This document shows, in pieces, positions 36,708 through 49,637 of a DNA stretch of 64,000 bases. Source of the stretch: a virus. The stretch is from positions 5,840-69,839 of IMG/VR virus record IMGVR_UViG_3300006201_000015; one strand, 5' to 3'. Position 1 is the first letter of the stretch; the number at the start of each line of letters is the position of its first letter. The notes beneath the pieces were generated by a model, which was given only the letters and a program-made list of their open reading frames with translations, made no database searches and was not told the DNA's origin. The translations under genes and the position numbers were made by a program.

Positions 36708-37295
36708 CTACTTTTTGTTCCCCATCATCGAATCAAGGCCAATCACGTCGGCAAGTTTTTCCCCGATTTGCCTTTTCACCTCTTCCGTAATCTTTTTCTT
36801 GATGTTGTCCGTAACTTCGGTAGTAGCCCTCTTAATTGCATATTCCATATCGTGGTTTACGGCCTTATCAAGAATGTATTCCAGGCGCGTTTTACAGGAG
36901 CCATATCCGGAGGCGGGCTTTCCAGAGCTGTCTACTTTTTGATCCAGGTATTGAGCGCAGGACTCCTTCAACTGCTCCCGAACGGTTATACCACGCTTTA
37001 CAACATCTCCCCACCTATCGGTGATGTCTTTAGGCGTGTCAAAAAACTCCTGCATCATAGCATTAAGTTTTTCGCTGATTTCGTTTTCGAGGGATGCCAT
37101 TTTTGCGTCTAAGAGTTTTCTCGCTTCGCTTTCCAAAGAGTTTGTGATGTTTGTTCCAACCTTTGCGACAATGCCCGAAAGAATTTCGTCCCTCAGCCGC
37201 CCGTCAAGGTTCTCTTCCTCGTCCAACCAGTCCAAGTTGACTGTTACATTAAATGTTGCCATTGCAAAAACCTCCATAGTTTTTAGAATGAGCAC
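36708..37295 (-). CDS. hypothetical protein
   Basis: 195 aa, predicted helical. Confidence 0.3.
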   Translation of the reverse strand: MLILKTMEVFAMATFNVTVNLDWLDEEENLDGRLRDEILSGIVAKVGTNITNSLESEARKLLDAKMASLENEISEKLNAMMQEFFDTPKDITDRWGDVVKRGITVREQLKESCAQYLDQKVDSSGKPASGYGSCKTRLEYILDKAVNHDMEYAIKRATTEVTDNIKKKITEEVKRQIGEKLADVIGLDSMMGNKK

Positions 37296-38113
37296 TCACA
37301 AGGCAAGTTGCCATCATCTTGGACAAGTTTCCTTGCTGCCGCCCAGAACTTTTGCGGCTTAGTCTTCTCAGATGGTGGTAATGCTTTTTCTTTGAGCCTG
37401 GCAAATTCCATCTCAAAATCTGAAAGATAGCCCTGTTTGAGAATGCTGTATCCGATAGCCGCCTCAGCCTGTTTTGCTTTCTCCCAGATCTCGGGATAAA
37501 GACAATAGACAATAAACCAGTGCTGTTTACCAGCTTTGAGGCAACCGGTGCAATTTGCATGATTGAAAATGCTGTAGGTCTTCGGACGTTCGATCCCAAC
37601 CTCTTCAATATTATGAACAGTACGTATCTCCCAGGTCAGCGGGTATTCCGTGTGATATCCCATAGCAGCCATGATACCAACCCTACGCTGAATACGATGC
37701 TGCTCATTAGTATCAAAGCCGTAGACCAGAGAAATATCGTCCCTTATCTGGGGAGGATTTGTGGGATAGTGCTCGGATAACCACTTATGAAACGGTTCGG
37801 TCTTTAGCCTGTTTGTGCAGAAAGCGGTTGACTGAGCGCCAGACTTGAACGCTTTAATTTCCATACACACATCAAACTGGTCTTTGACTTCCCATCCAGG
37901 CATATTGGCATAAGTGATAGGAACGCCCAAATAATCCGAAACCTCATTCTTAAAACGTTTGATATCTTCGTCTTCGGTACGGGGACATAGGTCATGATTG
38001 AGCAAAATCGTGTTCTCTGCCCCGTACCTTCTGACTACCTCCACGGCGGCGATTGCTGAAGAATGACCGCCAGAAAAACATACGATGTGTTTCATACCGA
38101 CCACAACCATCAC
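37283..38113 (-). CDS. PP-loop ATP pyrophosphatase (PAPS reductase/QueC-like superfamily)
   Basis: HIVCFSGGHSSAIAA (SGGxxS PP-loop). C-terminal CTGC. Confidence 0.6.
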   Translation of the reverse strand: MMVVVGMKHIVCFSGGHSSAIAAVEVVRRYGAENTILLNHDLCPRTEDEDIKRFKNEVSDYLGVPITYANMPGWEVKDQFDVCMEIKAFKSGAQSTAFCTNRLKTEPFHKWLSEHYPTNPPQIRDDISLVYGFDTNEQHRIQRRVGIMAAMGYHTEYPLTWEIRTVHNIEEVGIERPKTYSIFNHANCTGCLKAGKQHWFIVYCLYPEIWEKAKQAEAAIGYSILKQGYLSDFEMEFARLKEKALPPSEKTKPQKFWAAARKLVQDDGNLPCECSF

Positions 38114-38545: not shown

Positions 38546-39552
38546 TTATTCAATAGGCACACCGATATACTCAAGCACTCTCTGCATACCAAGACCATGT
38601 TCTTCCCACGGCTTCATGCAGTAGCTCCAGAGTTTTGGGTGGGTTGTTTTCAGACGTTGGAAACGGTTCGGTGCCTTTTCCAGATGAGCGCCAAAGGCAC
38701 AAAAGACACAGCCAGTACGCTTTTCTCCTGTTGTTGTCCACCCCCCCCGTCAGTCTTAATGATCTCGCCATAGACAGGTGCATAGGGGATTTGGTAAGTG
38801 TAAAGATATTCGAGTACGTCTTCCTCTGTCCAAAACGACATAGGCTGAGAACTGGGTTTCTTGCCAGAAAAGGCGTTGCACCCCATACGCAACCATGTAG
38901 CGCGGCGGGATCGGCTCTCATTCGCCATTGTTGCGATGATAGGCACTCTTCCAGTTTCCTTAGCGTATTTCTTCATGGGGCGCTTTTTCATAACAGCACA
39001 GCATCGGGAAGATACCTTAAAGGGCGCATCCAGCAGATAACACCATTTCTCACAATTAAACTCTGAGGGTGTCCCATTGCTCCGCATAATCTCGCCGTGT
39101 AGTTCCTTCCACCGGAAGGAGCCAGGCTTATGCCCGTACTCTACTGTGTCAGCTACACGCTTGGAAACCACAGGATATCCGTATACCTCAATAACTTTTC
39201 GGAAATTCATCTCAGGTTTTACCACTACCACATTGTCTCGGCTCATGGCAAATTGGCGAACCTCTGGAAACTCTAACCCAGTATCCGAGAACACAGCCGG
39301 CACATCAGGATAGATACGCCGCACAATATCAAGGAGTACGGTCGAGTCCTTGCCGCCAGAAAAGGCCACATAGACCTTGCCATTGTAATGCTGATACCAT
39401 TCGATGATCCGAGCTGTGGTAATCTGGATTTTGCGGGGAAGAGGCAGACGCTGCATTTCTTCCAGTTGTTCCTTGCTATGCAAAACGTCCACCTCCTTGC
39501 CCGCCACCGCCTCCTCCATCAAACAGATAGAGGAGAAGCAGTAGCAAAGCAC
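38546..39552 (-). pseudogene. phage PAPS-reductase-like PP-loop protein with a frameshift at a C8 tract (38741-38748)
   Basis: VAFSGGKDSTVLLD PP-loop. With one extra C the reading continues ...DGGGWTTTGEKRTGCVFCAFGAHLEKAPNRFQRLKTTHPKLWSYC... and ends at 38546. Confidence 0.6.
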
Positions 39553-39585: not shown

Positions 39586-40044
39586 TTAACTCCCATGGTC
39601 TTCGGTAGCCTTCGGCAGAGCAGGCTGATGAGTAGTAGCCAACCAGTAATTGATGACTTTGTTGTAGCTGTTGTCATTGCCCATGAAACGCTTGAGCATA
39701 GCGGCCATCAAACCAGTCTCTGCGCTGAAGGTGTCTCCCTGCTGACACTTCACCACAGTCTTCGTACCGTCACTCCAATAGACAATGGTAGCGGGATCGT
39801 TAAAGATCAAACGCTCAATCTCAGGAAGAAGTGTGTCGGAATGCTGCCGCATATGCCGCAGTGCAGCGTTCCAGCCATTGTGAAATCCCTCGTGATCCAT
39901 TGCCGTCTCAACCCCTTTGGATTCAGCAGGCAAAGACAGAAGCCGACGCAAATCACCATTTACTGGTACAGCCACAAAATTTGCGAGGGGGGGGTGAACC
40001 TGAACAGCCCTCAGCGGATACAAACTCATTTCATTGTTACGCAT
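39586..40044 (-). CDS. hypothetical protein
   Basis: 152 aa. An in-frame G8 tract (39987-39994) encodes HPPL near the N-terminus. Confidence 0.3.
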   Translation of the reverse strand: MRNNEMSLYPLRAVQVHPPLANFVAVPVNGDLRRLLSLPAESKGVETAMDHEGFHNGWNAALRHMRQHSDTLLPEIERLIFNDPATIVYWSDGTKTVVKCQQGDTFSAETGLMAAMLKRFMGNDNSYNKVINYWLATTHQPALPKATEDHGS

Positions 40045-40067: not shown

Positions 40068-40988
40068 TTAATGTGCATGACGGTCACAGTCATTCAAGAC
40101 CATAACCTGATTCCAGATATCCTCACCGAGCAAGCCTTTGAACTTTCTCTCCGTCTTGTTCGGGTTATCTGACTTTTCTACTGCGAAAGGTGCCATATGC
40201 CAGCGAATCAAAAGTGCTACTTTCAACCTTTCGTGCAGAGTCAAATCGGTAGTGTGGGCAAAGCTCTCATAAGCACCGACACGCTCATGTTGATAAAAAT
40301 GAGCAATATCTGTAGGTTCACCTTTGGCATTACAGAAAACTTTCGTATACTCCTTGCCAATATCGTGAATCGCTACCGCCCGGCCCAAAGAGATATCATT
40401 CACCCACTGGGGATACTGTTTGTCGAAATACTCATAGGCCGTTAGCATATGTTGCCCTACAGTAAACTCATGATGGGGATTATCGTGCTCCAGAGCTGCA
40501 AGGCGGGAGAGCAGAAGGCTGATACCGCCGATAAACGGTTCCACACCCTCAACCCAGATTTCGTCCCAGCCTTCAGCTTCCATAGGGATATCAAAACCCC
40601 GGTACATTCGGTCGATCACATTCTCTGGAACACTACGTTCACGGTTGGCGTTGCGCTCTACACAGAGGATATACGGCGTCGCCATGAAAACGCACACTTT
40701 CTTGATCTGGGGATTAACAGCGGTGACACGATGCAGAAATCCCATTCGGCGCTTGTAACTGACATTCGTGGCGTCGTAGACCACATCTTTACCAGCACGC
40801 AAATCGGAGAGCACACGGTCATGGAGCGTCTGGAATACCAGCTCCTGGTGGTTTTGGTCGGAGATGTCACTCAGTAGCTCTTCACGAATGGTATCACTGG
40901 AATGGATCACGGCGTCAGGCAACTTGTTCTCGGCATACCAAGACTTTCCACTTCCAGGAAGACCAACCATCATATAGAAGCACTGCAT
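40068..40988 (-). CDS. polynucleotide kinase (P-loop) fused to an HD-domain phosphohydrolase; putative RNA end-healing enzyme
   Basis: Walker A GLPGSGKS at the N-terminus. C-terminal HD region (HDIGK ... H..D). Confidence 0.6.
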   Translation of the reverse strand: MQCFYMMVGLPGSGKSWYAENKLPDAVIHSSDTIREELLSDISDQNHQELVFQTLHDRVLSDLRAGKDVVYDATNVSYKRRMGFLHRVTAVNPQIKKVCVFMATPYILCVERNANRERSVPENVIDRMYRGFDIPMEAEGWDEIWVEGVEPFIGGISLLLSRLAALEHDNPHHEFTVGQHMLTAYEYFDKQYPQWVNDISLGRAVAIHDIGKEYTKVFCNAKGEPTDIAHFYQHERVGAYESFAHTTDLTLHERLKVALLIRWHMAPFAVEKSDNPNKTERKFKGLLGEDIWNQVMVLNDCDRHAH

Positions 40989-40989
40989 T

Positions 40990-41793
40990 TTACTTACCCT
41001 CCTGTAATTCCATCAGAAACCGCCGCTTCAAAATCTCCACCGTCGCTGTCTGTAGCACCTGATCGGCGTGCTGATTGATTGCGAGAGGCACTGTATCCAT
41101 ATATTGCTTTTTATCGGCGATCATGGAATCAACTGCCTCCTGCATAAGCTGCCGCGCCTCCTCTAAGGTGTGACACCCTCTTTTTACCTCTACAAGGTAA
41201 TCCGACTGTTTGCTAACCAGACAATCAAAATAATTTTCGCCGGCCATATAGCGGGTCATAAATTCCCGCATCCGCAAGGCATGATGAAGCTGCTTAGGGT
41301 CGTACCCAAATTGCTCAATCTTGGCAAGAGCGGCGGGATAAGGATGCTCCATAGCGTGTTGCTTTTCCAACGCCATACCCAGCAGACAACTCATACCAGC
41401 ATAGTTGTTATAGCGGGCAATATCTTCTCTGGCGTCCAACACCGATTGAAACAGATCGGTGTAGAGCGGGTTGATAATGCAGTAGGGCGTGAACAGAATC
41501 TCAATGAAATTGACGTTTTGTTTGCGAATACACTCAAACATGAGCCGAATATCCTTAAAGTCCACGTGCTCATCGTTTTCCATAACATGGGTGGTGCTGA
41601 CGGGCTTGTGGGTAAGAACGAAATCTGAGAAGCTGGGGAGTACGATTGCCTTGGTATCAATATCGCTACTCTCATAATCCAGTTTGTAATTTTGTGAACC
41701 TTGCAGGAACAGGCCAACCCACGCATCTCCGAAGTGTTCTTGAACGGTAGCCAAATGCTCTTGCATCCGAGCCATAATGCGCTCCTTATTCAT
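40990..41793 (-). CDS. Pol-beta-superfamily nucleotidyltransferase
   Basis: GLFLQGSQNYKLDYESSDIDTKAIV (GS...DxD nucleotidyltransferase signature). Confidence 0.5.
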   Translation of the reverse strand: MNKERIMARMQEHLATVQEHFGDAWVGLFLQGSQNYKLDYESSDIDTKAIVLPSFSDFVLTHKPVSTTHVMENDEHVDFKDIRLMFECIRKQNVNFIEILFTPYCIINPLYTDLFQSVLDAREDIARYNNYAGMSCLLGMALEKQHAMEHPYPAALAKIEQFGYDPKQLHHALRMREFMTRYMAGENYFDCLVSKQSDYLVEVKRGCHTLEEARQLMQEAVDSMIADKKQYMDTVPLAINQHADQVLQTATVEILKRRFLMELQEGK

Positions 41794-42097
41794 CGCTACA
41801 CTCCTTCTTTCTCACACAGTCTCGTAAAATCCGCTGATAGAGGGAGGGGTCATACCCCTCCATATCAGCCCAGAACATCAAATACTCTGTGGTGTACTGA
41901 TCGGTCACATCACCGGAGACATCGTAAAGCCGGCCACCGATTTCCTGAACGAAGTGGTTAATCACTGGCTCATACATCATGTTTCCGCCAAATCTCTCTT
42001 GAAGAATAAAGGCAAACCAGTAACAGCAGCCATTTAGAAAAACCTCCTCAGAGCCTTTGAAGTTCTGGATAAAGTTGAGGATTGTAGACTTATTCAT
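41786..42097 (-). CDS. hypothetical protein
   Basis: 103-aa ORF. Confidence 0.3.
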   Translation of the reverse strand: MNKSTILNFIQNFKGSEEVFLNGCCYWFAFILQERFGGNMMYEPVINHFVQEIGGRLYDVSGDVTDQYTTEYLMFWADMEGYDPSLYQRILRDCVRKKECSDE

Positions 42098-43533
42098 CCC
42101 TCTTCTTCCATAACCTCCACCTCCTGGGCTTCCTCCATATCCGGCGCAGCGGCGGTATCTTTAATAAGCCCCTCCAGTGCCTTGAAGTAGAAGTTCTTAT
42201 GCTTGTAGGCCGCAAACTTGGGACGATTGACAATCCGACACACAACGCCCTCTCGAATATGGGTTTTGCCAACAGGGTCGGGGCCGTCATAATACCTCTC
42301 TGCGATAGCTTTGATGTATTCGCCAGCGTCCACAGCTTGGGGAGAACCCACAGCGTCGGGAAGCTGAACCATATCCGGGATAAAGCAACGCCAGAACAGC
42401 GGCACACACTTGACACCCATCTGTTCACAGCGATAACGCATGAAGTCGGGCGGGTACTCCACCACATCACCATCCTCGTTGGTCATGGTCATCCGGTAGA
42501 CATAGATGTCGGATTTGGGAACAGGCTCGGCAGATACTCCAGAACCGTCTGCTGTCGTTTTCTTGCCGGTAGGATCGCAGCCATAGCTAAAGAAAGTGGT
42601 TTTGCCGTACTGTTTGGAAAACTCCTTGTCACCAATCTTGGCGTTATTGCTAGGAGACATGATGGGCGTGCCATCATCCGTGAAACCCACCACCTCATAG
42701 TAGACCTCCTCGCCTTTGTGGAGCTTCCCTTCAAAAATCTTGGCGTGCTGTTCACGGAAAGCATTGCTACCATAGAAACCTCCGTCAAAGCTATCCAACA
42801 CTACACGGCGGGTTCCGGTAACATAACCCCAATCATAGATGGGCGTCCGCTCAATCATAGAGCGTAGCCAGTTCGGAGTTTTATCGCTCTCAAACAGCCG
42901 CTTTTGCAAACCGTTCTTATACTTGTAGCCTTGAAGCACAGGAAGATAGCCAGTACGCTGACTGGTGCCGTGCATTTTCAGCGTGATCTCTACCAGGTCG
43001 CCGGCACGGAAAGCAGACAGATTGTAGGCAAGCTGCTCTGTATCGGCGTGTTCCATGAAGAGCGGAGAAATCGGATCGGACTTCTTGCGGACACGACTTC
43101 CGCCGCCAGGACTTCCACCACTACGGTTGCGCTTAGGAATGTACTTCTCACAGATGGTGATACCGTTCACGACAGAAATTGTGTCTCCATCTTTCAGCAA
43201 AGAGGTATCAATAAATCCCTCCATGCAGGAGATGGGCAGAAACAAGCCATCACTTTTTTCTCCTCGGAGCTTCAGCGCCTTAATGTTGCGCTTCTCTGGA
43301 TCGAGGTAGCCGCCGGCGGGGTTGCCGTTCTCATCTTTTCGCCGCAGAAGGTCGTTCTTCTGAGCGAACTCTACACCGAGCTTGCCGTCTACGGGGAAGT
43401 AGACCCCCAGCTGGTCAGGTTCGGTTCCAAGATCCACAATTACCGTGTTCCCAAAGCACTCGCCACAGAGCAGACGATCAGCGTTAGTGTGCTTACGCAG
43501 ATTACGGATTTTGGTGACATACGCACAGTACAT
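42094..43533 (-). CDS. ATP-dependent RNA ligase (Rnl2/Rnl5-like nucleotidyltransferase with N-terminal OB-like domain)
   Basis: Lysine-adenylate motif EITLKMHGTS (KxHGT[NS]) about 180 aa from the start. Start trimmed to the ATG that follows the conserved leader/SD. Confidence 0.6.
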   Translation of the reverse strand: MYCAYVTKIRNLRKHTNADRLLCGECFGNTVIVDLGTEPDQLGVYFPVDGKLGVEFAQKNDLLRRKDENGNPAGGYLDPEKRNIKALKLRGEKSDGLFLPISCMEGFIDTSLLKDGDTISVVNGITICEKYIPKRNRSGGSPGGGSRVRKKSDPISPLFMEHADTEQLAYNLSAFRAGDLVEITLKMHGTSQRTGYLPVLQGYKYKNGLQKRLFESDKTPNWLRSMIERTPIYDWGYVTGTRRVVLDSFDGGFYGSNAFREQHAKIFEGKLHKGEEVYYEVVGFTDDGTPIMSPSNNAKIGDKEFSKQYGKTTFFSYGCDPTGKKTTADGSGVSAEPVPKSDIYVYRMTMTNEDGDVVEYPPDFMRYRCEQMGVKCVPLFWRCFIPDMVQLPDAVGSPQAVDAGEYIKAIAERYYDGPDPVGKTHIREGVVCRIVNRPKFAAYKHKNFYFKALEGLIKDTAAAPDMEEAQEVEVMEEEG

Positions 43534-43548
43534 TTGCATCTCTCCTTT

Positions 43549-43569
43549 GATTTTATTCGTTGTTAATAG
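43549..43569 (-). promoter_or_regulatory. conserved leader motif copy 10
   Basis: gattttattcgttgttaatag, upstream of the RNA ligase gene. Confidence 0.5.
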
Positions 43570-43598
43570 AAAAAACAAAAAAGAATAAATATAGGGGG

Positions 43599-44753
43599 TT
43601 AGGAATACATAGCTTTCAGCCTATGCGCCACACTCGCAACACCCTGAGCAGCTTGACGCATTTCATCTTCCGTAGTATCAAACCCCATTGAAATACGGAC
43701 GGTACAGGCAGCGCTTTCCTCAGATAATCCAATTCCACGCAGAACGTGTGAAGTTGTGGCGTCGGATGCGCTGCAAGCGGAACCAGCAGAAAGGTAGATG
43801 TCTTGCTGATCCAGCAACAGAAGTAAAGATTCGCTGTTGACTCCCGGCAGTGTCAAGCTGATGATAGCGGAGGAACGCCGGTCGGTATCGCCGTTGATAT
43901 GAAACTCTCCATCCATTTCGACATTAAGCTCATTCAAAAACACATCCCGCAAATGTGCCCACTGTGCCATCTGCCTTGGCAGGCGCTTGGTCGCTATCTC
44001 TGCCGCTTTGCCAATCCCCACGATTCCTGGTACATTCTCGGTGCCGCCTCGCAATCCACGCTCCTGACCTCCACCATAAACCCACGGTTCCTTTCTGATT
44101 CGATTGGAGATATACAGCACTCCAATTCCCTGGGGTGCTCCGAACTTATGACCGGAGAGAGATAGGAAGTCCACATTATAGGCGTGAACGTCGATTGGAA
44201 CGTGACCCGCCGCCGCTACTGCGTCTGTATGGAAAGGAACGTCATACTTTTTACAAAGTGTTCCGATTTCTTTGATAGGATTCACCGTTCCAAGTTCGTT
44301 GTTGACCCACATGACAGAAACGGCACCCAGCTCTTTCTTGTTCTCAATGATAAGCCGCTCCAAATCATCCAGGTCTACCGAGCCGTCCGACCAAACCCTT
44401 GCGTATTTCATAACAACGGGGAGCGGGCATACACACGCATTTTTCAACGGTTCAGAAATCGAATGATGCTCAATCTCGTCCGTAAGGACAACGTGTTTGG
44501 TCAGACATCGGAACCAGGCGTTGTTCGCCTCAGTTCCGCCGGAGGTAAAAAATATCTCCGAAGGGTCTGCACCGATCATTAGCGCTACCTGTTCTCGTGC
44601 CTTTTCGATAGCGTGGCGGGCGTTGATACCCTGGGAATGGATACTGCTGGGGTTTCCAACATGACACGTCTGAAACCATGGAAGCATGGTATCCAAGACT
44701 TCGGGAAAAGGTGCGGTCGATGCCGCATGGTCGAGATAGACCAATGATATCAC
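43599..44753 (-). CDS. cysteine desulfurase (class V aminotransferase, IscS/NifS-like)
   Basis: PLP-lysine motif SLSGHKFGAPQGIGVLY and active-site SAGSACSAS. Confidence 0.85.
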   Translation of the reverse strand: MISLVYLDHAASTAPFPEVLDTMLPWFQTCHVGNPSSIHSQGINARHAIEKAREQVALMIGADPSEIFFTSGGTEANNAWFRCLTKHVVLTDEIEHHSISEPLKNACVCPLPVVMKYARVWSDGSVDLDDLERLIIENKKELGAVSVMWVNNELGTVNPIKEIGTLCKKYDVPFHTDAVAAAGHVPIDVHAYNVDFLSLSGHKFGAPQGIGVLYISNRIRKEPWVYGGGQERGLRGGTENVPGIVGIGKAAEIATKRLPRQMAQWAHLRDVFLNELNVEMDGEFHINGDTDRRSSAIISLTLPGVNSESLLLLLDQQDIYLSAGSACSASDATTSHVLRGIGLSEESAACTVRISMGFDTTEDEMRQAAQGVASVAHRLKAMYS

Positions 44754-44822
44754 TCCTTCGTATAAGAAGAGGCTCAGACCGTAGACAGCCGGCGTGCTAC
44801 TCTATCGTTCTGAGCCTCCTTT

Positions 44823-44842
44823 GATTTTATTCGTTATTAGTC
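44823..44842 (-). promoter_or_regulatory. conserved leader motif copy 11 (overlaps the 3' end of the vWA gene; about 60 nt upstream of the cysteine desulfurase start, with an intervening hairpin)
   Basis: gattttattcgttattagtc. Confidence 0.45.
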
Positions 44843-46396
44843 GTTGACAACAGGACGCAGTGCGTCCTCGATAGGCTGGTAGCGCTCAGTGTTCAGCGTT
44901 TCCAACAGACACTCATAGGGATCGAGCTTGCCACTCATCACCATCTGAGCGATGTTGACGGAGAAACCGCTGACCAGCGCCACGCCCATGTCGTTCTCCC
45001 TAACGGGAATCGTCCCAGAGCGGCTGGCAACATTCCAGAACACCAATCTGGGCATTTTGTAACCTGCCTGCTGATACCGCCTATTGATCTCGTCAAAAAG
45101 GCGGGCGTTTGGCCTCTGCGTGTTGTAGCTCCACCGATCTCTCGAAGGAGCACCGCAGCTGGCACAAGCATCAAACTCCATATCGGAAATGATGAGAATG
45201 TTGGCAGGCAAGTCATTCTGATTCATATGCTTAGAAACCGCTGTTTCCAGGATGAGATCAAAGACTGCCTCCACGTTGGTATTGGCTCCAGCATGGCAAG
45301 CATGGACAATTTGAAGCCGCTCATAGAGGTTCTTGCCACTGGAGATGTCGAGGAGCTGCGGTCTGTCGGAGAAGGACATATACTGATCCTTGAATTGACC
45401 AGAAGATCGCTCGGCAAAATAGATCGCCAAGGCGTTTGCCACCTCCAACGGACGAGCGGAACTCCCAGGGAGCATCACCCACTCCATACTTCCGCTATCG
45501 TCCATAACCACCATCGTGTTTCCACAACCCTGTACCGTGTCAGGCAAATTCTGCCACAATGCCTCCAGTGTGGCGTCCACGCCGTGGCTCTGACGATACT
45601 TGTTGACAATATCGTGCGGGAACAGCGTACCAGCGTTGATCTTGGCCTCGCCGTTCTCCACCCGACTAAGGAACTCACGGCGGCGCTCCTCATCGTGGCG
45701 GAGGAAAGCCTTGTTGTAAATCAGGTTGGCACGGGAGGGGACTCGCTGGTAATCAATCCCGTCCCAATCGTTCTTGGACATCTGCTGCTCCACAACAACC
45801 AGGTAACGGGACAGGCCAGAAAGAGTATGCCGATAGGTACGCTCGGTCATATTCAACCCTTCGCACAGAATACGGGCGTAATGACGAGACTCCTTAGAAG
45901 AGGACTTGCGGCGCGGCATCCACTTTGCCAGCAGAGAGATCGGCTTCTGCTCGACGTTGTTATGCAGATCGTCATGCAGCTGCCTTGCCACCAGCTCAAT
46001 CACCTTATCGCCCACCGGCGTATCCAGCAGACACCAGAGATCGTCCCAACGCCCATACTCAGGCACCAACGACAGCACCGGTGTAACGTACTCCGGAAAC
46101 TTCTTTGCCATCGGCACCATAGCCGCACGAAACAGTCGGCGCTCACCCAGCCCGCCACGCACATCGCGGGCAAAGAACAGCCACTTCATCGCTGTCACCT
46201 TATCCTCGAAAAACGCCTGGGTGAAGCGATCCGCGATCTCCTTAACGCTGGCGTTACGGAGAGACGCCACGGCAAAGTTGAGATCCAGCAAAGATCGACC
46301 AGTGGTGCGATAGCCGACCGCCCCATTCTCGGTAACAGAGATATTGTTTGCGCCGTCCAGCATCGTGTCCTTGACACTTTCCATAAAGTTGCTCAT
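44837..46396 (-). CDS. vWA-domain protein of the DUF2828/UCP015417 type; N-terminal helical domain possibly TROVE (Ro60)-like
   Basis: MIDAS motifs VVMDDSGSM and ISDMEFD in the C-terminal half. Large helical N-terminal domain. Confidence 0.5.
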   Translation of the reverse strand: MSNFMESVKDTMLDGANNISVTENGAVGYRTTGRSLLDLNFAVASLRNASVKEIADRFTQAFFEDKVTAMKWLFFARDVRGGLGERRLFRAAMVPMAKKFPEYVTPVLSLVPEYGRWDDLWCLLDTPVGDKVIELVARQLHDDLHNNVEQKPISLLAKWMPRRKSSSKESRHYARILCEGLNMTERTYRHTLSGLSRYLVVVEQQMSKNDWDGIDYQRVPSRANLIYNKAFLRHDEERRREFLSRVENGEAKINAGTLFPHDIVNKYRQSHGVDATLEALWQNLPDTVQGCGNTMVVMDDSGSMEWVMLPGSSARPLEVANALAIYFAERSSGQFKDQYMSFSDRPQLLDISSGKNLYERLQIVHACHAGANTNVEAVFDLILETAVSKHMNQNDLPANILIISDMEFDACASCGAPSRDRWSYNTQRPNARLFDEINRRYQQAGYKMPRLVFWNVASRSGTIPVRENDMGVALVSGFSVNIAQMVMSGKLDPYECLLETLNTERYQPIEDALRPVVND

Positions 46397-46474
46397 ATTC
46401 TCTTACCTCCTATAATTTTGAGATACCTCGGAACACAGTTGTCATCTTGCTATTGCTGTATGTGTTCAGAGAAT

Positions 46475-46598
46475 TGGAGCGGCAGGTAGGAATCGAACCT
46501 ACGAATGGCAGCTTGGCTTCCTTTTTACCTTGCTGTTAGTGAAACTTCCGCTTCACATTTTTTATAGGGCTGCTGTGTTACCACTTCACCACTGCCGC
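46475..46598 (-). tRNA. tRNA-like gene with a ~50-nt insertion replacing the anticodon loop
   Basis: 7-bp acceptor GCGGCAG/CTGCCGC, encoded CCA, D-arm, T-arm GTAGG-TTCGATT-CCTAC, anticodon stem GCAGC/GCTGC. The stem encloses a 57-nt loop that contains a hairpin and CACTAACAGCAAGG. Confidence 0.5.
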
Positions 46599-46811
46599 AT
46601 AGTTGCTTGTCTTTCCAAGCTGCCACAGCCCAGTTCAAGATATTTGGGCTGATTATCTGGCGCTTATTTTCAGAGCAGACGTAAGCGATCCCAAAGCCCT
46701 GCCCTTATCCATTCATTAGCGAGAATGGATTTCGCTTGCGTTTTATCATCCGCAACTACGCCGGTTTTTTTCTTGACGACTCGAAAGAACACCGGAAAAC
46801 AAAGGAGTCTT

Positions 46812-46926
46812 GTGCCAGGGGTGGGAATCGAACCCACGACCACGGGATTAAAATTCCTTCAATCATTGCTGTGAGCGTTTCATACGATACGCATTGATAC
46901 GCGCTCTATCCACTGAGCTACCCTGG
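46812..46926 (-). tRNA. tRNA-like gene, anticodon region atypical (contains CTCACAGCAATG)
   Basis: Acceptor GCCAGGG/CCCTGGC, D-arm GCTC-AGTGGAT-AGAGC, T-arm GTGGG-TTCGATT-CCCAC. No canonical anticodon stem found. Confidence 0.4.
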
Positions 46927-47128
46927 CTTGAGGTGATAGGGTATGGGCCACTCTCCCATACAAACAGTGTTCTCCACGGTTGCGCACCCGTTTCAATAAA
47001 CATGACGTTTACAATCTTTTCGTCTATGCTACACCGTTTTACATAAGGGTTCATCCGTCGTTTTTGTACATCGGGCAGCTACTCCCAATGCGCATGGTCA
47101 GCTATTCCATGACGCCCTTCTTTTTAGT

Positions 47129-47204
47129 CACAGCGAATGGGACTCGAACCCAATCCTTCCGGCCCCACATGGGCCAGCGTGCTATCCAGCTACACCACAT
47201 CTGC
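47129..47204 (-). tRNA. standard-length tRNA-like element with weak acceptor pairing and non-canonical anticodon loop (possible pseudo-tRNA)
   Basis: T-loop TTCGAGT, D-arm GTGT-AGCTGGATA-GCAC, anticodon arm TGGCC-CATGTGG-GGCCG (A at position 33). Confidence 0.3.
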
Positions 47205-47432
47205 TAAGGCACGAGGATTTGCCTTATGAGCTTTCTCTTTGCTCACCTATCTCTTGCTGTCCTGGCTCTCACAGGTGGGAGTGGTACAACTCCCAGACGT
47301 TCCGATTTGCACGGTCACTACACTTGTTTTACGTCCGTTGCTGATCACCTTTAGACGGCGTTCTCTGTACCAGAGCAATCGCATTCTGCATCCGAACCGC
47401 AAAGAAAGGATTTGCGTACAAAAGTACGCTTG

Positions 47433-47548
47433 TGCAGAGGGTAGGACTCGAACCTACGACACATAGTTCCCCATTATACATTGCTGTTAGTGAGGCTGTG
47501 CGCTCCACATTTTCTATACTATTGCTCTACCGACTGAGCTACCTCTGC
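47433..47548 (-). tRNA. tRNA-like gene with a ~43-nt insertion replacing the anticodon loop
   Basis: Acceptor GCAGAGG/CCTCTGC, D-arm GCTC-AGTCGGT-AGAGC, T-arm GTAGG-TTCGAGT-CCTAC, anticodon stem ATAGT/ACTAT around a 50-nt loop with hairpin and TCACTAACAGCAATG. Confidence 0.5.
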
Positions 47549-47664
47549 ATATTGGGAGGTTTTCATTGCTGCCTGTGTTTTTTCATTACACATATGAATG
47601 CGGGAACCTCCCAGGAACCGCCGTATTCATGATATTAGCGGACGCATTTTTTCCAAAATTTTAG

Positions 47665-47686
47665 AATGAATTGCTGTTAGCGTCCC
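47665..47686. repeat. left copy of a ~20-bp direct repeat (gaattgctgttagcgtccca) that carries the ACAGCAAT motif
   Basis: Identical sequence recurs at 48333-48355. Confidence 0.5.
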
Positions 47687-47966
47687 AGTTGATAACTTTT
47701 TCAATGTTGTGCCGGAAGCGGTAAGTATGATGTTATTGACATCACTTAGGGCTTGTCTCGTGCTTTGTTCATGCAGAGCCTCCTTAACTGCATCCCAATC
47801 TTCCGCACTTTTGTGGGCGGTTCACATTTTGAAACCTGTTGGGGCACCGCCCCATACGTTTCAGCAGCCGATTACATTACATTTTCCAAAGATAACTCAG
47901 ATGGTCTGGTCACGTGCTCTACTCATGGCACGAATCTCCTTTCTAAGAATTATCATAGCGGCTTTT

Positions 47967-47991
47967 AGGGGAGCCTACGGACTCGAACCGT
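47967..47991 (-). ncRNA. tRNA-like 3' half (T-arm TACGG-TTCGAGT-CCGTA plus acceptor 3' strand); 5' half not resolved
   Basis: Canonical T-arm. Upstream RNA contains CACGCACAGCAATTTAC, a variant of the insert motif. Confidence 0.3.
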
Positions 47992-48170
47992 AGAGGAAAA
48001 GATTTGCAGTCTTCTTGTATAGTAAATTGCTGTGCGTGTCCGCCGCCCGTTACACGGTATGGCCTGCCACCCGACGCTCCCATATTGCTCGTCTTTCCGA
48101 GCTGTCAGCGGTCTTTCCCGCCGTCAAGAAAGGGGGCTTACAATGTACGCTATGCCGCTCACCACACGGC

Positions 48171-48261
48171 TGGCGGAGAGGGTGGGACTTGAACCCACAC
48201 GCCCTTGCGGGTTACTGGCACCTTAGCAGGATGCTTCCTTACCAATTAGGATTACCCCTCC
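48171..48261 (-). tRNA. tRNA-Ser (anticodon GCU), class II with long variable arm, CCA encoded
   Basis: Acceptor GGAGGGG/CCTCTCC, anticodon arm GCATC-CTGCTAA-GGTGC, long variable arm, T-arm GTGGG-TTCAAGT-CCCAC. Confidence 0.8.
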
Positions 48262-48332
48262 ATATGTGGCGATTTCCGCCACCACGGGACGCATTTTCAA
48301 CTGGATGAATTAAATGTTCATTGTTTTGAAAT

Positions 48333-48355
48333 TGCTGTTAGCGTCCCAAAACAAA
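48333..48355. repeat. right copy of the ~20-bp direct repeat (aaattgctgttagcgtccca)
   Basis: Matches 47665-47686. Confidence 0.5.
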
Positions 48356-48364
48356 ATGCTCGTT

Positions 48365-48691
48365 TTATTCAGTAGTTTCGCCGTCGCCGGCACCAGTAGT
48401 CTCCTCAGCATAATGCGGATTGAGGAGCTTAGAGAAATTGCTGATGATAGCCGCGTTGTTCTGACGCTGTGTGGACATGGTTTCCCGTGTCTTTACAAGG
48501 TCGGCCATATAGGTGTCGATCTCGGTCATGCCGTCGTCGATCTGCTGGTTGATGAGTTCCAGTCGAGAGATAGTGCGGGTTACGATTTCAACCGCATCGT
48601 CCGCCTGCCGTTCCAGTCGGTTAATTTCCTGCTGCTTTTCCCTCAGAATGTCATGTGAACTGGAAGAGGTAGTCTTCTTTCCAAAAGCCAT
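48365..48691 (-). CDS. hypothetical coiled-coil protein
   Basis: 108 aa, heptad-like charged sequence. Confidence 0.3.
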   Translation of the reverse strand: MAFGKKTTSSSSHDILREKQQEINRLERQADDAVEIVTRTISRLELINQQIDDGMTEIDTYMADLVKTRETMSTQRQNNAAIISNFSKLLNPHYAEETTGAGDGETTE

Positions 48692-48704: not shown

Positions 48705-49637
48705 TTAATTCATGCCGGGGATGGATACGATAGCGTTAGAACCAGACACCGTAGGCATCTTACCATCCCACTGTTCGTATTTGATCTTCTCAATCAGCTC
48801 AGGAGTGAGAGAGGAAGCAATTTCACGGTTAGCCTGAGCCTCTGCCTCTGCCGCAATCCGAACAACTTCCGCCTCGGCATTCGCTTTAACGATAGCAGTC
48901 TCTGCTTGAATCTCAGCGGCCTCCTTATCCTTCTGTGCCTGAATCATAGCGACTTCCTTGTCTTTGTTAGCCTGGATTTTGGCGGTCTGAGCCTCAATAT
49001 TTGCCAGTTCCAGTTCCTGCTGGGCAGTTACTTTCTTCTGAATAGCCGCTGCCGTTTCAGAATCCACGGAGATGTCAGTAAAGTTCACCGTATCAATGAT
49101 AATGCCGTACTTGTCAAACTTCTCCTTGAGGTACAGATCCAATTCCGCATTGATGGCTGTGCGTTTATCGCCAAAGATGTCTGTAACGGGATAGTTGGCA
49201 CTGACTTCCTGTGTCCATGCGATAATCTTGGGCTTAATAAAGGTATCCTTGATTTCCTCGCCAGACTTGCCCTTAAAGGTAACAAATGTGCTTGCTACAC
49301 GCGCCTCATCGAAGCGGTAGGAGAACTCCAGATTAACTCGGACTGTCTTACCATCCGATGTGGGAATACTGAAACTCTCGTCGTTCTTGCTGTCTCCCTT
49401 ATCGTCGGATGTCAGGTAGCTTTGCTCAATGCCGATGGAATAGGTAGTGACCTTTTTGGTGGGCGCTACCAAATTCCAGCCCTGGGATAGAACCTCACCG
49501 TCTACACCACCGTTCATGTTGTAAACCACTCCGACGTAACCTGCGGGCACACGGCTGGTACACAGCAGAGCCAGGATAATACCGCCAAAAATTAGGACAG
49601 CCAGAACGATCGCTCCAATGAAACCTTTCTTTCTCAT
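48705..49637 (-). CDS. SPFH/band-7 (prohibitin/stomatin-like) membrane protein
   Basis: N-terminal TM helix, SPFH core, long Ala/Glu-rich coiled-coil tail. Confidence 0.8.
   Translation of the reverse strand: MRKKGFIGAIVLAVLIFGGIILALLCTSRVPAGYVGVVYNMNGGVDGEVLSQGWNLVAPTKKVTTYSIGIEQSYLTSDDKGDSKNDESFSIPTSDGKTVRVNLEFSYRFDEARVASTFVTFKGKSGEEIKDTFIKPKIIAWTQEVSANYPVTDIFGDKRTAINAELDLYLKEKFDKYGIIIDTVNFTDISVDSETAAAIQKKVTAQQELELANIEAQTAKIQANKDKEVAMIQAQKDKEAAEIQAETAIVKANAEAEVVRIAAEAEAQANREIASSLTPELIEKIKYEQWDGKMPTVSGSNAIVSIPGMN

What the first reader, a model, noticed from the sequence alone, without database searches (positions are those of the whole stretch)
40068..46396. Phage-encoded RNA end-healing and sealing cassette beside the tRNA array
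- Four consecutive genes: a polynucleotide kinase fused to an HD phosphohydrolase (40068-40988), a Pol-beta-type nucleotidyltransferase (40990-41793), a small unknown (41786-42097) and an ATP-dependent RNA ligase with KMHGTS lysine motif and OB-like N-domain (42094-43533).
- They are followed by a cysteine desulfurase, the vWA/DUF2828 protein and then the tRNA-like array.
- A kinase plus 2',3'-phosphoesterase plus ligase is the logic of T4 Pnkp/Rnl1 repair of anticodon-nuclease-cleaved tRNA, and of fungal Trl1 tRNA splicing.
- Together with the insert-bearing tRNAs this could be a self-contained tRNA processing or repair system, or a counter-defence against host anticodon nucleases.
- The kinase-HD fusion, rather than kinase-HAD or calcineurin-like phosphatase, is an unusual architecture.
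Basis: partly seen in the sequence, partly recalled or inferred. Interest (0 to 1): 0.8.

Follow-up and report, generated by a model that had tools for sequence, protein, structure and literature searches.

The report
Phage RNA repair genes plus Ro-like RNAs
A gut phage carries an ordinary-in-kind three-enzyme RNA break-repair set (end-fixing kinase/phosphatase, nucleotide adder, RNA ligase), and next to it a Ro-like protein gene that, across many unrelated phages, always sits beside small RNAs sharing an ACAGCAA motif, three of which here are built into tRNA bodies.

Summary
The six genes are at the stated coordinates, all on the minus strand, with overlapping or abutting ends.

**The cassette.**
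- 40068-40988 is a Pnkp-type 5'-kinase fused to an HD phosphohydrolase.
- 40990-41793 is a Pol-beta-fold nucleotidyltransferase, and its best family match is RlaP.
- 41786-42097 is YunG-like.
- 42094-43533 is an Rnl5-like ATP-dependent RNA ligase. Its best structural match is the Naegleria RNA ligase.
- Ligase, nucleotidyltransferase and kinase-HD travel together in about 75 of 80 related phage loci.

This matches the published heal, fill and seal syntax of RNA repair. It is a new variant of a known kind.

The kinase-HD fusion is not unusual. It has 890 cluster representatives at 50% identity. Full-length homologs in cultured Bacillus phages abut RNA ligase genes.

**The new part.** The insert-bearing tRNAs track DUF2828, the Ro-like vWA protein, and not the ligase.
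- Their inserts hold a module: a helix followed by ACAGCAA.
- The module also occurs free-standing beside DUF2828 in 8 of 8 cultured phages examined.
- It is 14-fold enriched upstream of DUF2828.
- No Rfam family matches it.

**Function.** The most likely role is tRNA repair against host anticodon nucleases, with DUF2828 and its RNAs as an accessory RNP. A tRNA-splicing role is not excluded.

The parts
40068..40988 (-). Pnk-HD: an N-terminal P-loop polynucleotide 5'-kinase fused to a C-terminal HD phosphohydrolase (end healing).
   Evidence: AAA_33 2.5e-19. bacter_Pnkp 1.5e-15. PDB 4gp7 3.3e-10. Conserved GxxGxGKS, D32, R35, D72, R116 and R118, and H180, H208-D209, H234, H264 and D302. phrog_6931 matches the kinase part (residues 2-146) at profile positions 185-338 of 343, i.e. 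at the C-terminal end of that profile.
40990..41793 (-). Pol-beta-fold nucleotidyltransferase, a divergent RlaP-like enzyme (3'-end fill-in).
   Evidence: phrog_388 4.2e-15. PF10127 RlaP is the best Pfam family: window protein 0.018, 8 of 29 relatives match, best 9.7e-6. The model has pLDDT 93. Foldseek finds KNTase and HalB at 5e-6. G32-S33, D44 and D46 are invariant.
41786..42097 (-). Small YunG-like protein of unknown role, translationally coupled to both neighbours.
   Evidence: PF24591 1.6e-9. phrog_4814. Present in only part of the related loci.
42094..43533 (-). ATP-dependent RNA ligase, Rnl5-like: an N-terminal OB domain followed by a nucleotidyltransferase domain. It is 479 aa, against about 340 aa for NgrRnl.
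   Evidence: phrog_968 3.8e-63. TIGR02306 3.3e-10, below its cutoff. Foldseek top match is NgrRnl at 1.4e-14, then Rnl2, REL1 and Rnl3. The N-domain also matches Trbp111/EMAPII-type tRNA-binding OB folds. The profile hits T4 Rnl2 at 0.003. K186-M-H-G-T-S, E428-G-V-V and K444/K446 are invariant.
43599..44753 (-). NifS/IscS-like cysteine desulfurase. It is adjacent to the ligase only in the closer relatives.
   Evidence: Aminotran_5 1.7e-72. NifS 1.7e-109. Synteny.
44837..46396 (-). DUF2828/DUF7788 protein: a helical N-terminal part plus a vWA domain with an intact MIDAS motif (D299-x-S-x-S, T373, D405). It is annotated 'Ro-like RNA-binding protein' in phage records.
   Evidence: PF25043 2.6e-42 and PF11443 1.4e-35. 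phrog_850 1.8e-138. 710 phage records hold a homolog. Invariant MIDAS residues. The link to true Ro60 is only marginal, E about 1.
46431..46467 (-). Free-standing ACAGCAA module 3, just upstream of the DUF2828 start. The GAACACA/UGUGUUC stem closes a loop that begins UACAGCAAU.
46478..46598 (-). tRNA-module chimera, class C. It is Gly-like: G1-C2-G3, U73, an encoded CCA, and GCCAA directly before the 3' anticodon-stem strand.
   Evidence: Rfam tRNA 51.1 bits with a 52-nt insert. Orthologs and covariation. Fold z-score -3.7.
46813..46927 (-). tRNA-module chimera, class B. The insert lies between anticodon-stem positions 28 and 29. A complete 3-bp stem and 7-nt loop (AUUUUAA here, CUGUUAA in most orthologs) lies 3' of the insert.
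   Evidence: Rfam tRNA 48.5 bits. Alignments.
47433..47548 (-). tRNA-module chimera, class A. GGGGA or UGGGA precedes the 3' anticodon-stem strand, which is Pro-like.
   Evidence: Rfam tRNA 56.5 bits..
47640..47685 (-). Free-standing ACAGCAA module 2: GGACGC-UAACAGCAAU...GCGUCC.
   Evidence: z-score -2.4.
48174..48261 (-). Ordinary tRNA-Ser(GCU) with an encoded CCA.
48286..48347 (-). Free-standing ACAGCAA module 1: GGGACGC-UAACAGCAAU...GCGUCCC.
   Evidence: z-score -3.4.
48705..49637 (-). SPFH/Band-7 protein upstream of the RNA array. It is a variable accessory.
   Evidence: PF01145 7e-26. Present in only some related loci. Loci that have it but lack DUF2828 also lack the modules.
39586..40044 (-). 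Conserved 152-aa protein with no family match, directly downstream of Pnk-HD in the close relatives.

Best explanation
The block 40068-43533 is a phage RNA heal, fill and seal repair cassette.

Proposed steps:
1. Pnk-HD phosphorylates 5'-OH ends through its P-loop kinase.
2. Its HD domain removes 2',3'-cyclic or 3'-phosphate ends.
3. The RlaP-like nucleotidyltransferase can add back one or two nucleotides lost from the 3' end.
4. The Rnl5-like ATP-dependent ligase joins 3'-OH to 5'-phosphate. Its N-terminal OB domain resembles tRNA-binding OB folds.

The most likely substrates are tRNAs cut in the anticodon arm by host ribotoxins or anticodon nucleases during infection.

The neighbouring DUF2828 protein is a separate and far more widespread unit. 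It is always encoded beside several small RNAs that carry a helix followed by the ACAGCAA module. I infer that it binds them, by analogy with Ro60 and Y RNAs. Here three of those RNAs use a tRNA body as scaffold.

In this phage clade the two units are placed side by side, as rsr-yrlA and rtcBA are in Salmonella.

What is shown and what is inferred:
- Shown: domain identities, conserved catalytic residues, conserved gene linkage, and the RNA-protein gene linkage.
- Inferred: enzymatic activities, substrates, RNA binding by DUF2828, and the counter-defence role.
For: The triad is conserved:
- 258 IMG/VR loci encode ligase relatives.
- The nucleotidyltransferase and Pnk-HD accompany the ligase in about 75 of 80 loci, while other neighbours vary.

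The same logic appears elsewhere:
- In Bacillus Tsamsa-like phages, Pnk-HD overlaps an Rnl1-like ligase gene.
- Listeria phage P100 has DUF2828, an HD hydrolase and RtcB together.
- Mycobacteriophage LeBron has the Ro-like gp53, a polynucleotide kinase and an RNA ligase (PMC13148394).

Published framework:
- The repair syntax and RlaP in phages are described in PMC7824862, section 3.4.9.
- RlaP biochemistry is in PMC12776372.

Link between DUF2828 and the module:
- The tRNA chimeras move with DUF2828 when it moves.
- 8 of 8 cultured phages have the module beside the gene.
- Module density is 1.69 per kb upstream of DUF2828 against 0.12 per kb elsewhere, Poisson 7e-80.
- 20 of 20 loci with a full upstream region hold at least 3 modules.
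- In the reciprocal search from the RNA pattern, 38 of 120 hits have DUF2828 nearby, all 38 on the same strand, at a median distance of 454 nt.

Structure of the insert hairpin: 18 of 28 chimeras have a hairpin scoring at least 6 that ends 1-3 nt before the motif, against 8% of background sites. Many different stem sequences are used.
Against: - No activity has been measured.
- The window ligase, nucleotidyltransferase and HD domain all score below the curated thresholds of their named families.
- Characterised Rnl5 enzymes seal nicks in duplex RNA, not open anticodon loops (own knowledge of NgrRnl and DraRnl).
- No anticodon nuclease or host is known for this phage.
- DUF2828 loci found through the RNA motif do not carry the cassette within the few kb held. 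The functional coupling of the two units therefore rests on adjacency in one clade and on looser co-occurrence elsewhere.
- Homology of DUF2828 to Ro60 is not significant by sequence.
Confidence: 0.6

Rival explanations
1. The cassette is a tRNA splicing system. The insert-bearing genes are pre-tRNAs. The module is cut out, possibly to become a DUF2828-bound small RNA as archaeal tRNA introns encode C/D RNAs, and the exons are healed and joined by Pnk-HD, RlaP and the ligase.
For: - Removing the class B insert exactly restores a 5-bp anticodon stem and a canonical 7-nt loop with U33. The remnant stem covaries, GGA/UCC against GGU/ACC.
- That junction would be a nick inside a duplex, which is the substrate type of Rnl5 ligases (inference).
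- Class C keeps Gly-like identity features and xCCAA next to the stem.
- More distant phages with the same cassette carry tRNAs whose anticodon loop holds a nested tRNA(CUA) or a minihelix ending in CCA.
- Such enigmatic phage tRNA introns are published for Lak phages (PMC6784885).
Against: - Classes A and C cannot regenerate a loop with U33 by any simple deletion (inspection).
- The class B anticodon differs among orthologs: GUU, UUU and GCU.
- The module is free-standing in the window and in eight cultured phages. It is therefore functional without being an intron.
- No endonuclease candidate was found in the window.
- No ribozyme family matches.
- No intron-less counterpart was found.
Confidence: 0.2
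2. The enzymes act on nucleic-acid ends in replication or recombination. They would work on DNA nicks, RNA-primed junctions or damaged DNA, not on tRNA.
For: - The cassette lies inside a replication and nucleotide-metabolism region with DNA polymerase, primase-helicase, Erf, an exonuclease and NrdD.
- Runella HD-Pnk is described as a DNA/RNA end-healing enzyme (PMC6097658).
- Rnl5 enzymes act on duplex nicks.
Against: - All ligase matches are RNA ligases.
- RlaP does not use DNA substrates (PMC12776372).
- Linkage to tRNA genes and to the Ro-like protein recurs in unrelated phages.
Confidence: 0.08
3. The cassette matures or modifies the DUF2828-associated RNAs themselves, for example by end trimming, nucleotide addition or circularisation of the ACAGCAA RNAs. 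It would not repair damaged host tRNA.
For: - The cassette and the RNA array are immediately adjacent in this clade.
- A nucleotidyltransferase together with a ligase could remodel RNA ends.
Against: - DUF2828 and its modules occur widely without the cassette nearby.
- The cassette occurs in loci with no DUF2828 within 10 kb.
Confidence: 0.07

Closest known systems
T4 Pnkp plus Rnl1 tRNA repair
   Same: A phage-encoded 5'-kinase, a 3'-phosphoesterase and an ATP-dependent RNA ligase, with tRNA genes nearby. The presumed role is the reversal of anticodon-nuclease damage.
   Different: The phosphoesterase here is an HD domain, not the DxDxT (HAD) type. The ligase is Rnl5-like with an N-terminal OB domain, not Rnl1. 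An RlaP-like nucleotidyltransferase sits inside the operon.
Runella slithyformis HD-Pnk with adjacent ligase (Munir and Shuman 2017, cited in PMC6097658)
   Same: The same two healing domains, HD and P-loop Pnk, in one polypeptide, encoded next to an ATP-dependent ligase.
   Different: The domain order is reversed, Pnk-HD here. The protein is phage-borne. There is no Tpt1 or methyltransferase-HIT partner.
Pnk-HD plus Rnl1-like ligase of Bacillus Tsamsa-like phages (Skywalker gp121/gp122)
   Same: A full-length collinear Pnk-HD homolog (32-35% identity) whose gene overlaps an RNA ligase gene. The same genomes also encode DUF2828 next to their tRNA array.
   Different: The ligase family differs (Rnl1-like). 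There is no adjacent RlaP-like gene. DUF2828 lies far from the cassette.
RlaP nucleotidyltransferases (PF10127; T4 NrdC.11, Pseudomonas RlaP)
   Same: A Pol-beta nucleotidyltransferase encoded beside an RNA ligase. The Pfam RlaP profile is the best match over residues 10-150.
   Different: It scores below the gathering score. The profile comparison with T4 NrdC.11 is weak, 18% probability.
Naegleria gruberi and Deinococcus radiodurans Rnl5 ligases
   Same: An N-terminal OB domain plus a nucleotidyltransferase domain. It is the best structural match, 1.4e-14 over the full length.
   Different: The window protein is about 140 residues longer, with low-confidence inserts at 135-170 and 242-253. 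It is far below the TIGR02306 cutoff.
Ro60 (Rsr) with Y RNA/YrlA, and the rsr-yrlBA-rtcBA operon of Salmonella (PMC4201824, PMC7790460)
   Same: A protein of about 500 aa with a C-terminal vWA/MIDAS domain, encoded beside several small RNAs, some with tRNA-like parts, and adjacent to RNA repair enzymes.
   Different: No significant TROVE match. The RNA motif is ACAGCAA, not GNCGAA. In YrlA the tRNA-like domain has a closed acceptor end, whereas here the tRNA has normal ends and the module sits in the anticodon arm.

Membership tests
T4-type Pnkp | A P-loop 5'-OH polynucleotide kinase with a catalytic Asp and phosphate-binding Arg residues. | tested here: met
   GLPGSGKS, D32, R35, D72, R116 and R118 are invariant. 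The protein aligns to the CthPnkp kinase domain at 3.3e-10.
T4-type Pnkp | A DxDxT (HAD) 3'-phosphatase domain. | tested here: not met
   The C-terminal half is an HD domain. No HAD match was found.
HD-Pnk (Runella type) | An HD phosphoesterase and a Pnk kinase in one polypeptide. | tested here: met
   Both domains are present, with conserved metal-binding and catalytic residues.
HD-Pnk (Runella type) | The order N-terminal HD, C-terminal Pnk. | tested here: not met
   The order here is Pnk then HD. phrog_6931 matches the kinase part at profile positions 185-338 of 343, which suggests that family has the reverse order. The Runella sequence itself was not available for comparison.
HD-Pnk (Runella type) | 2',3'-cyclic, 3'- and 2'-phosphoesterase activity, and 5'-kinase activity. 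| not testable with these tools
   This needs biochemistry.
Bacterial Pnkp/Hen1 | A kinase, a calcineurin-type phosphatase and a ligase-like domain in one protein, with a Hen1 methyltransferase partner. | tested here: not met
   Only the kinase part of TIGR04075 matches, residues 3-131. No metallophosphoesterase or Hen1 is present in the operon.
RlaP (PF10127) | A Pfam match at or above the gathering score. | tested here: inconclusive
   The window protein scores 15.2 bits against a cutoff of 23. 8 of 29 close relatives match, best 9.7e-6, and one homolog carries PF10127 precomputed.
RlaP (PF10127) | A Pol-beta fold with the G[GS] motif and DxD carboxylates, encoded next to an RNA ligase. | tested here: met
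   Adjacency is conserved across the related loci.
Rnl5 RNA ligases | An N-terminal OB domain followed by a nucleotidyltransferase domain with the motif I lysine. | tested here: met
   Foldseek matches NgrRnl over the full length at 1.4e-14. K186 lies in KMHGTS, and motifs IV and V are invariant. PF21189 scores 0.0066.
Rnl5 RNA ligases | The curated equivalog score of TIGR02306. | tested here: not met
   39.4 bits against a cutoff of 151. The protein is a divergent, longer relative.
Fungal/plant Trl1 | Ligase, kinase and a 2H cyclic phosphodiesterase fused in one protein, leaving a 2'-phosphate that Tpt1 removes. | tested here: not met
   The genes are separate, the phosphoesterase is HD and not 2H, and no Tpt1 was seen.
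Ro60/TROVE with Y RNA | A TROVE (HEAT-repeat ring) domain. | tested here: inconclusive
   No TROVE Pfam hit in 10 diverse members. The profile hits phage Ro60 (9l5y, 9kop) only at E about 1, and over the vWA start.
Ro60/TROVE with Y RNA | A C-terminal vWA domain with MIDAS. | tested here: met
   VWA_2 in 9 of 10 members, vWA_Ro60 in 3 of 10. D299-x-S301-x-S303, T373 and D405 are invariant.
Ro60/TROVE with Y RNA | Adjacent small RNAs with the GNCGAA Ro-binding motif (YrlA model). | tested here: not met
   The adjacent RNAs carry ACAGCAA instead. No Rfam Y RNA or YrlA match at E<=1. The motif definition is from PMC4201824.

The most novel reading that the evidence does not exclude
The three insert-bearing genes are true pre-tRNAs. 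Their intervening sequence is a small RNA that binds DUF2828. The phage supplies its own protein-only splicing finish, with Pnk-HD healing, RlaP fill-in and nick sealing by the Rnl5-like ligase inside the anticodon stem.

This would be the first enzymatic, non-ribozyme tRNA splicing pathway of a bacterial virus. It would be tied to a previously undescribed Ro/Y-like RNP, DUF2828 with ACAGCAA RNAs, that is spread across phages of at least four bacterial phyla.
Probability: 0.15. Interest if true: 0.9.

Novelty: new variant of a known kind. Interest (0 to 1): 0.55.

Why it matters
**The cassette.** It adds one more combination to the known modular RNA-repair syntax: an Rnl5-like ligase, an RlaP-like nucleotidyltransferase and a permuted Pnk-HD. 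It also shows that the Pnk-HD architecture is a large phage family that, as far as I could find, has not been characterised biochemically.

**The RNA-protein pairing.**
- DUF2828 homologs are found in 710 phage records, and their function is unknown.
- A conserved partner RNA motif gives this protein a concrete hypothesis that can be tested directly: binding, RNP structure, and a role in tRNA quality control or counter-defence.
- The motif is sometimes grafted into a tRNA body.
- It may also explain recurring unannotated gaps in phage tRNA arrays.

Tried and rejected
- **Near-identical phage.** A megablast of the region against 50,697 phage records found nothing.
- **Small ribozyme in the inserts.** A permissive Rfam scan of 46300-48500 found only tRNA hits and noise.
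- **ARAGORN intron placement.** It gives implausible A34 anticodons (AUA, AGA). I did not use it to define boundaries.
- **Intron-less class B counterpart.** A pattern search in IMG/VR gave 0 hits.
- **Sequence link of the nucleotidyltransferase to solved structures.** None was found, with the single sequence or with the profile.
- **Comparison with T4 NrdC.11.** hhalign gave only a weak C-terminal alignment.
- **DUF2828 against the PDB by sequence.** There was no significant Ro60 match.
- **Promoter and terminator scan.** Counts were at shuffle level, so it was uninformative.
- **SPFH/Band-7 as the partner of the tRNA-like RNAs.** I rejected this for the ACAGCAA module, because loci with SPFH but without DUF2828 lack the modules.
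- **Burroughs and Aravind 2016.** The paper could not be read. Statements about it rest on its citations in PMC7824862 and PMC12776372 and on my memory of its abstract.
- **Endonuclease candidate.** None was found among the ORFs scanned.

Full report
**Observation.** Their ends abut or overlap: a 1-nt gap at 40988/40990, an 8-nt overlap at 41786-41793 and a 4-nt overlap at 42094-42097. This is typical of a co-translated operon. The window is otherwise a replication and nucleotide-metabolism region of a phage of about 100-140 kb, with DNA polymerase, primase-helicase, Erf, an exonuclease, NrdD, methyltransferases and an integrase. No near-identical cultured phage exists in the phage collection.

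**Kinase-HD (40068-40988).**
- The N-terminal 145 residues match AAA_33 at 2.5e-19 and KTI12.
- They also match the kinase part of bacterial Pnkp (TIGR04075, 1.5e-15), the tRNA kinase PSTK and the solved kinase domain of C. thermocellum Pnkp (3.3e-10).
- In an alignment of 30 relatives down to 43% identity, the P-loop, D32, R35, D72, R116 and R118 are invariant. So is a complete HD signature: H180, H208-D209, H234, H264 and D302.
- The HD Pfam score of the window protein is sub-threshold at 0.0049. Many relatives carry PF01966, and the Bacillus phage homolog scores 2.2e-9.
- The nearest named relatives of the HD part are the HD domains of CCA- and A-adding enzymes.

The architecture is common. 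There are 1225 clusters at 90% identity. There are 890 representatives at 50% identity with E<=1e-30, nearly all about 300 aa and collinear. Full-length homologs at 32-35% identity occur in cultured Bacillus phages (Tsamsa, Skywalker, FADO), where the gene overlaps or adjoins an Rnl1-like 'tRNA ligase'. The reverse-order HD-Pnk of Runella is a characterised 2',3'-phosphoesterase and 5'-kinase encoded next to a ligase (PMC6097658). The claim that the fusion is unusual therefore fails.

**Nucleotidyltransferase (40990-41793).**
- No Pfam family passes threshold.
- RlaP (PF10127) is the best match for the window protein (0.018) and for 8 of 29 relatives, best 9.7e-6. One 61%-identical homolog has PF10127 precomputed.
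- The AlphaFold model is confident, with pLDDT 93. It is a Pol-beta fold with a helical C-terminal domain, closest to kanamycin nucleotidyltransferase and Hailong HalB.
- G32-S33 and D44-x-D46 are invariant.
- A profile comparison with T4 NrdC.11, which is itself a clear RlaP at 4.6e-12, was weak.
- RlaP enzymes add one or two nucleotides to RNA 3'-OH ends and do not act on DNA. They are proposed to restore nucleotides removed by nucleases such as RloC before ligation (PMC12776372, PMC7824862).

I file this protein as RlaP-like, with family membership unproven.

**Ligase (42094-43533).**
- Homologs start at MYxAYVT, so the ATG at 43533 is the start.
- phrog_968 (RNA ligase) matches at 3.8e-63.
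- TIGR02306 (Deinococcus DraRnl) matches at 3.3e-10, far below its cutoff.
- The profile hits T4 Rnl2 at 0.003 and the N-terminal domain of Naegleria RNA ligase at 0.03.
- The model has pLDDT 74. It matches Naegleria RNA ligase over its full length at 1.4e-14, followed by T4 Rnl2, trypanosome REL1, archaeal Rnl3 and Trl1.
- The N-terminal domain alone also matches Trbp111/EMAPII-type tRNA-binding OB folds.
- K186 in KMHGTS, E428-G-V-V and K444/K446 are invariant.
- No DNA ligase or capping-enzyme family outranks these matches.

**Conservation of the cassette.** The ligase has relatives in 258 IMG/VR loci. In the 80 loci retrieved, the nucleotidyltransferase and Pnk-HD accompany it in about 75. 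The YunG-like gene, the cysteine desulfurase, SPFH and the position of DUF2828 all vary. The conserved core is therefore ligase, nucleotidyltransferase and Pnk-HD. This is the kinase, phosphoesterase, nucleotidyltransferase and ligase syntax described for RNA repair systems, including those of jumbo phages (PMC7824862, section 3.4.9).

**The tRNA-like genes belong with DUF2828.**
- Rfam finds three tRNA-like genes of 115-121 nt, each with an insert of about 50 nt in the anticodon arm. It also finds a normal tRNA-Ser(GCU).
- In related loci the same three classes (A, B, C) lie directly upstream of the DUF2828 gene. They follow that gene when it sits 7 kb upstream or 5 kb downstream of the ligase, as in L041, L027 and L074.
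- The inserts share three elements in order: an A-rich stretch, a hairpin and an invariant CAGCA core within (Y)UAACAGCAA.
- 18 of 28 chimeras have an uninterrupted hairpin scoring at least 6 that ends 1-3 nt before the motif, against 8% of background sites. At least 14 different stem sequences are used.

**The module outside tRNAs.**
- The window also holds free-standing copies: a stem, then UAACAGCAAU, then a loop, then the closing stem. They lie at 48286-48347, 47640-47685 and 46431-46467.
- The same free-standing module flanks DUF2828 in Listeria phage P100 and mycobacteriophage LeBron.
- It also does so in a Felixounavirus, a Staphylococcus phage, a T4-like Vibrio phage, a Campylobacter phage, Bacillus phage MrDarsey and an Enterococcus phage, making 8 of 8 examined. 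In some of these it is fused to a T-arm.
- In most of these phages DUF2828 also borders the tRNA array.

**Statistics of the association.**
- Over 77 loci the module density is 1.69 per kb in the 2.5 kb upstream of DUF2828, against 0.12 per kb elsewhere (Poisson 7e-80).
- 20 of 20 loci with a full upstream region have at least 3 copies.
- In the reverse test I searched IMG/VR with a 16-nt RNA pattern. Of 120 hits, 38 have a DUF2828 gene in the stretch held, all 38 on the same strand, at a median of 454 nt.
- Loci that keep SPFH but lack DUF2828 also lack the module.
- No Rfam 15 family matches the module at E<=1.
- The known Ro60-binding motif of Y RNAs is GNCGAA (PMC4201824), which is different.

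**What DUF2828 is.** It has homologs in 710 phage records and is often annotated 'Ro-like RNA-binding protein'. It has a vWA domain with an invariant MIDAS motif at the same position as in Ro60. I could not show TROVE homology by sequence. I therefore say it works like Ro60 with Y RNAs. I do not file it as Ro60.

**Are the chimeras spliced?**

Evidence for splicing:
- In class B, deleting the insert between positions 28 and 29 restores a perfect anticodon stem and a canonical 7-nt loop. The remnant stem covaries.
- That junction would be a duplex nick, which suits an Rnl5-type ligase.
- Class C looks Gly-like, with G1-C2-G3, U73 and xCCAA next to the stem.
- More distant phages with the same cassette carry tRNAs that hold a nested tRNA(CUA) or a CCA-ended minihelix in the anticodon loop. 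This phenomenon is already noted as enigmatic in Lak phages (PMC6784885).

Evidence against splicing:
- Classes A and C cannot regain U33 by a simple deletion.
- The class B anticodon changes among orthologs (GUU, UUU, GCU).
- The module is plainly functional when free-standing.
- No endonuclease or ribozyme was found.
- No intron-less counterpart turned up.
- DUF2828 loci found through the motif do not carry the cassette nearby.

I give the splicing role about 0.2.

**Verdict.** The cassette is an RNA heal, fill and seal system of a known kind in a new combination. The kinase-HD fusion is common. The neighbouring tRNA-like genes are best read as tRNA-scaffolded members of a conserved, apparently undescribed RNA family linked to DUF2828. 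Activities, substrates and RNA binding remain inferred.

Noticed in passing
Window 46431-46467, 47640-47685 and 48286-48347 (minus strand); also L086 3150-3440, L085 4950-5230, L087 4200-5000, L088 4020-4260, L090 2340-2520, L091 700-2400 and L092 1870-2330: A conserved RNA module, a stem followed 1-3 nt later by ACAGCAA(U) at the start of a large closed loop, lies next to DUF2828 genes in phages of Firmicutes, Actinobacteria, Proteobacteria and Campylobacterota. No Rfam family matches it.
   Followed up: yes
L051 413-566, L054 2480-2631, L050 2714-2836, L074 18331-18463: In more distant phages with the same ligase cassette, some tRNA genes carry a complete tRNA(CUA) nested in the anticodon loop. 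Others carry an insert of about 47 nt ending in GCACCA. RNase P/Z-type excision would leave ends that a ligase could join directly. Similar enigmatic introns are reported for Lak phages (PMC6784885).
   Followed up: partly
Window 47972-48160 (minus strand); similar sequence in L044 8113-8256: A conserved non-coding stretch (UUGACGGCGGGAAAGACCGCU...ACAGC...) ends in a T-arm and an acceptor-like 3' strand and contains CACAGCAAU. It is not recognised by Rfam or ARAGORN, and its single-sequence fold is no better than shuffles (z +1.05).
   Followed up: partly
Window 47129-47204 (minus strand): A weak tRNA-like element (25.6 bits, below the gathering score) with a mismatched acceptor stem and an enlarged anticodon loop.
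   Followed up: no
Window 43599-44753, 38650-39552 and 37283-38113: A NifS-like cysteine desulfurase and two PP-loop/PAPS-reductase-like proteins (phrog_424, 77-89% identical across relatives) bracket the cassette. This suggests sulfur transfer to a nucleic acid, either tRNA thiolation or DNA modification.
   Followed up: no
Window 39586-40044: A 152-aa protein with no Pfam, PHROG or NCBIfam match. It is conserved directly downstream of Pnk-HD in close relatives and lies a few kb away in others.
   Followed up: no
Window 48365-48691 and 48705-49637: An SPFH/Band-7 protein and a small helical protein lie upstream of the RNA array. They are present in only a subset of related loci, and their presence does not predict the ACAGCAA modules.
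   Followed up: partly
L086 1968-2519 (Listeria phage P100): A ROOL RNA match (RF03087, 86 bits, E 4e-16, below the gathering score of 99.1) lies between the tRNA genes and the DUF2828 locus. Rfam also places the tRNAs of this stretch on the same strand as DUF2828, opposite to the record's annotation.
   Followed up: no
PMC13148394 (mycobacteriophage LeBron): LeBron encodes the Ro-like gp53 (DUF2828), a 306-aa polynucleotide kinase (gp74) and an RNA ligase (gp85). All three were reported toxic on overexpression. This is a genome-level co-occurrence of the same functions in an actinophage.
   Followed up: no
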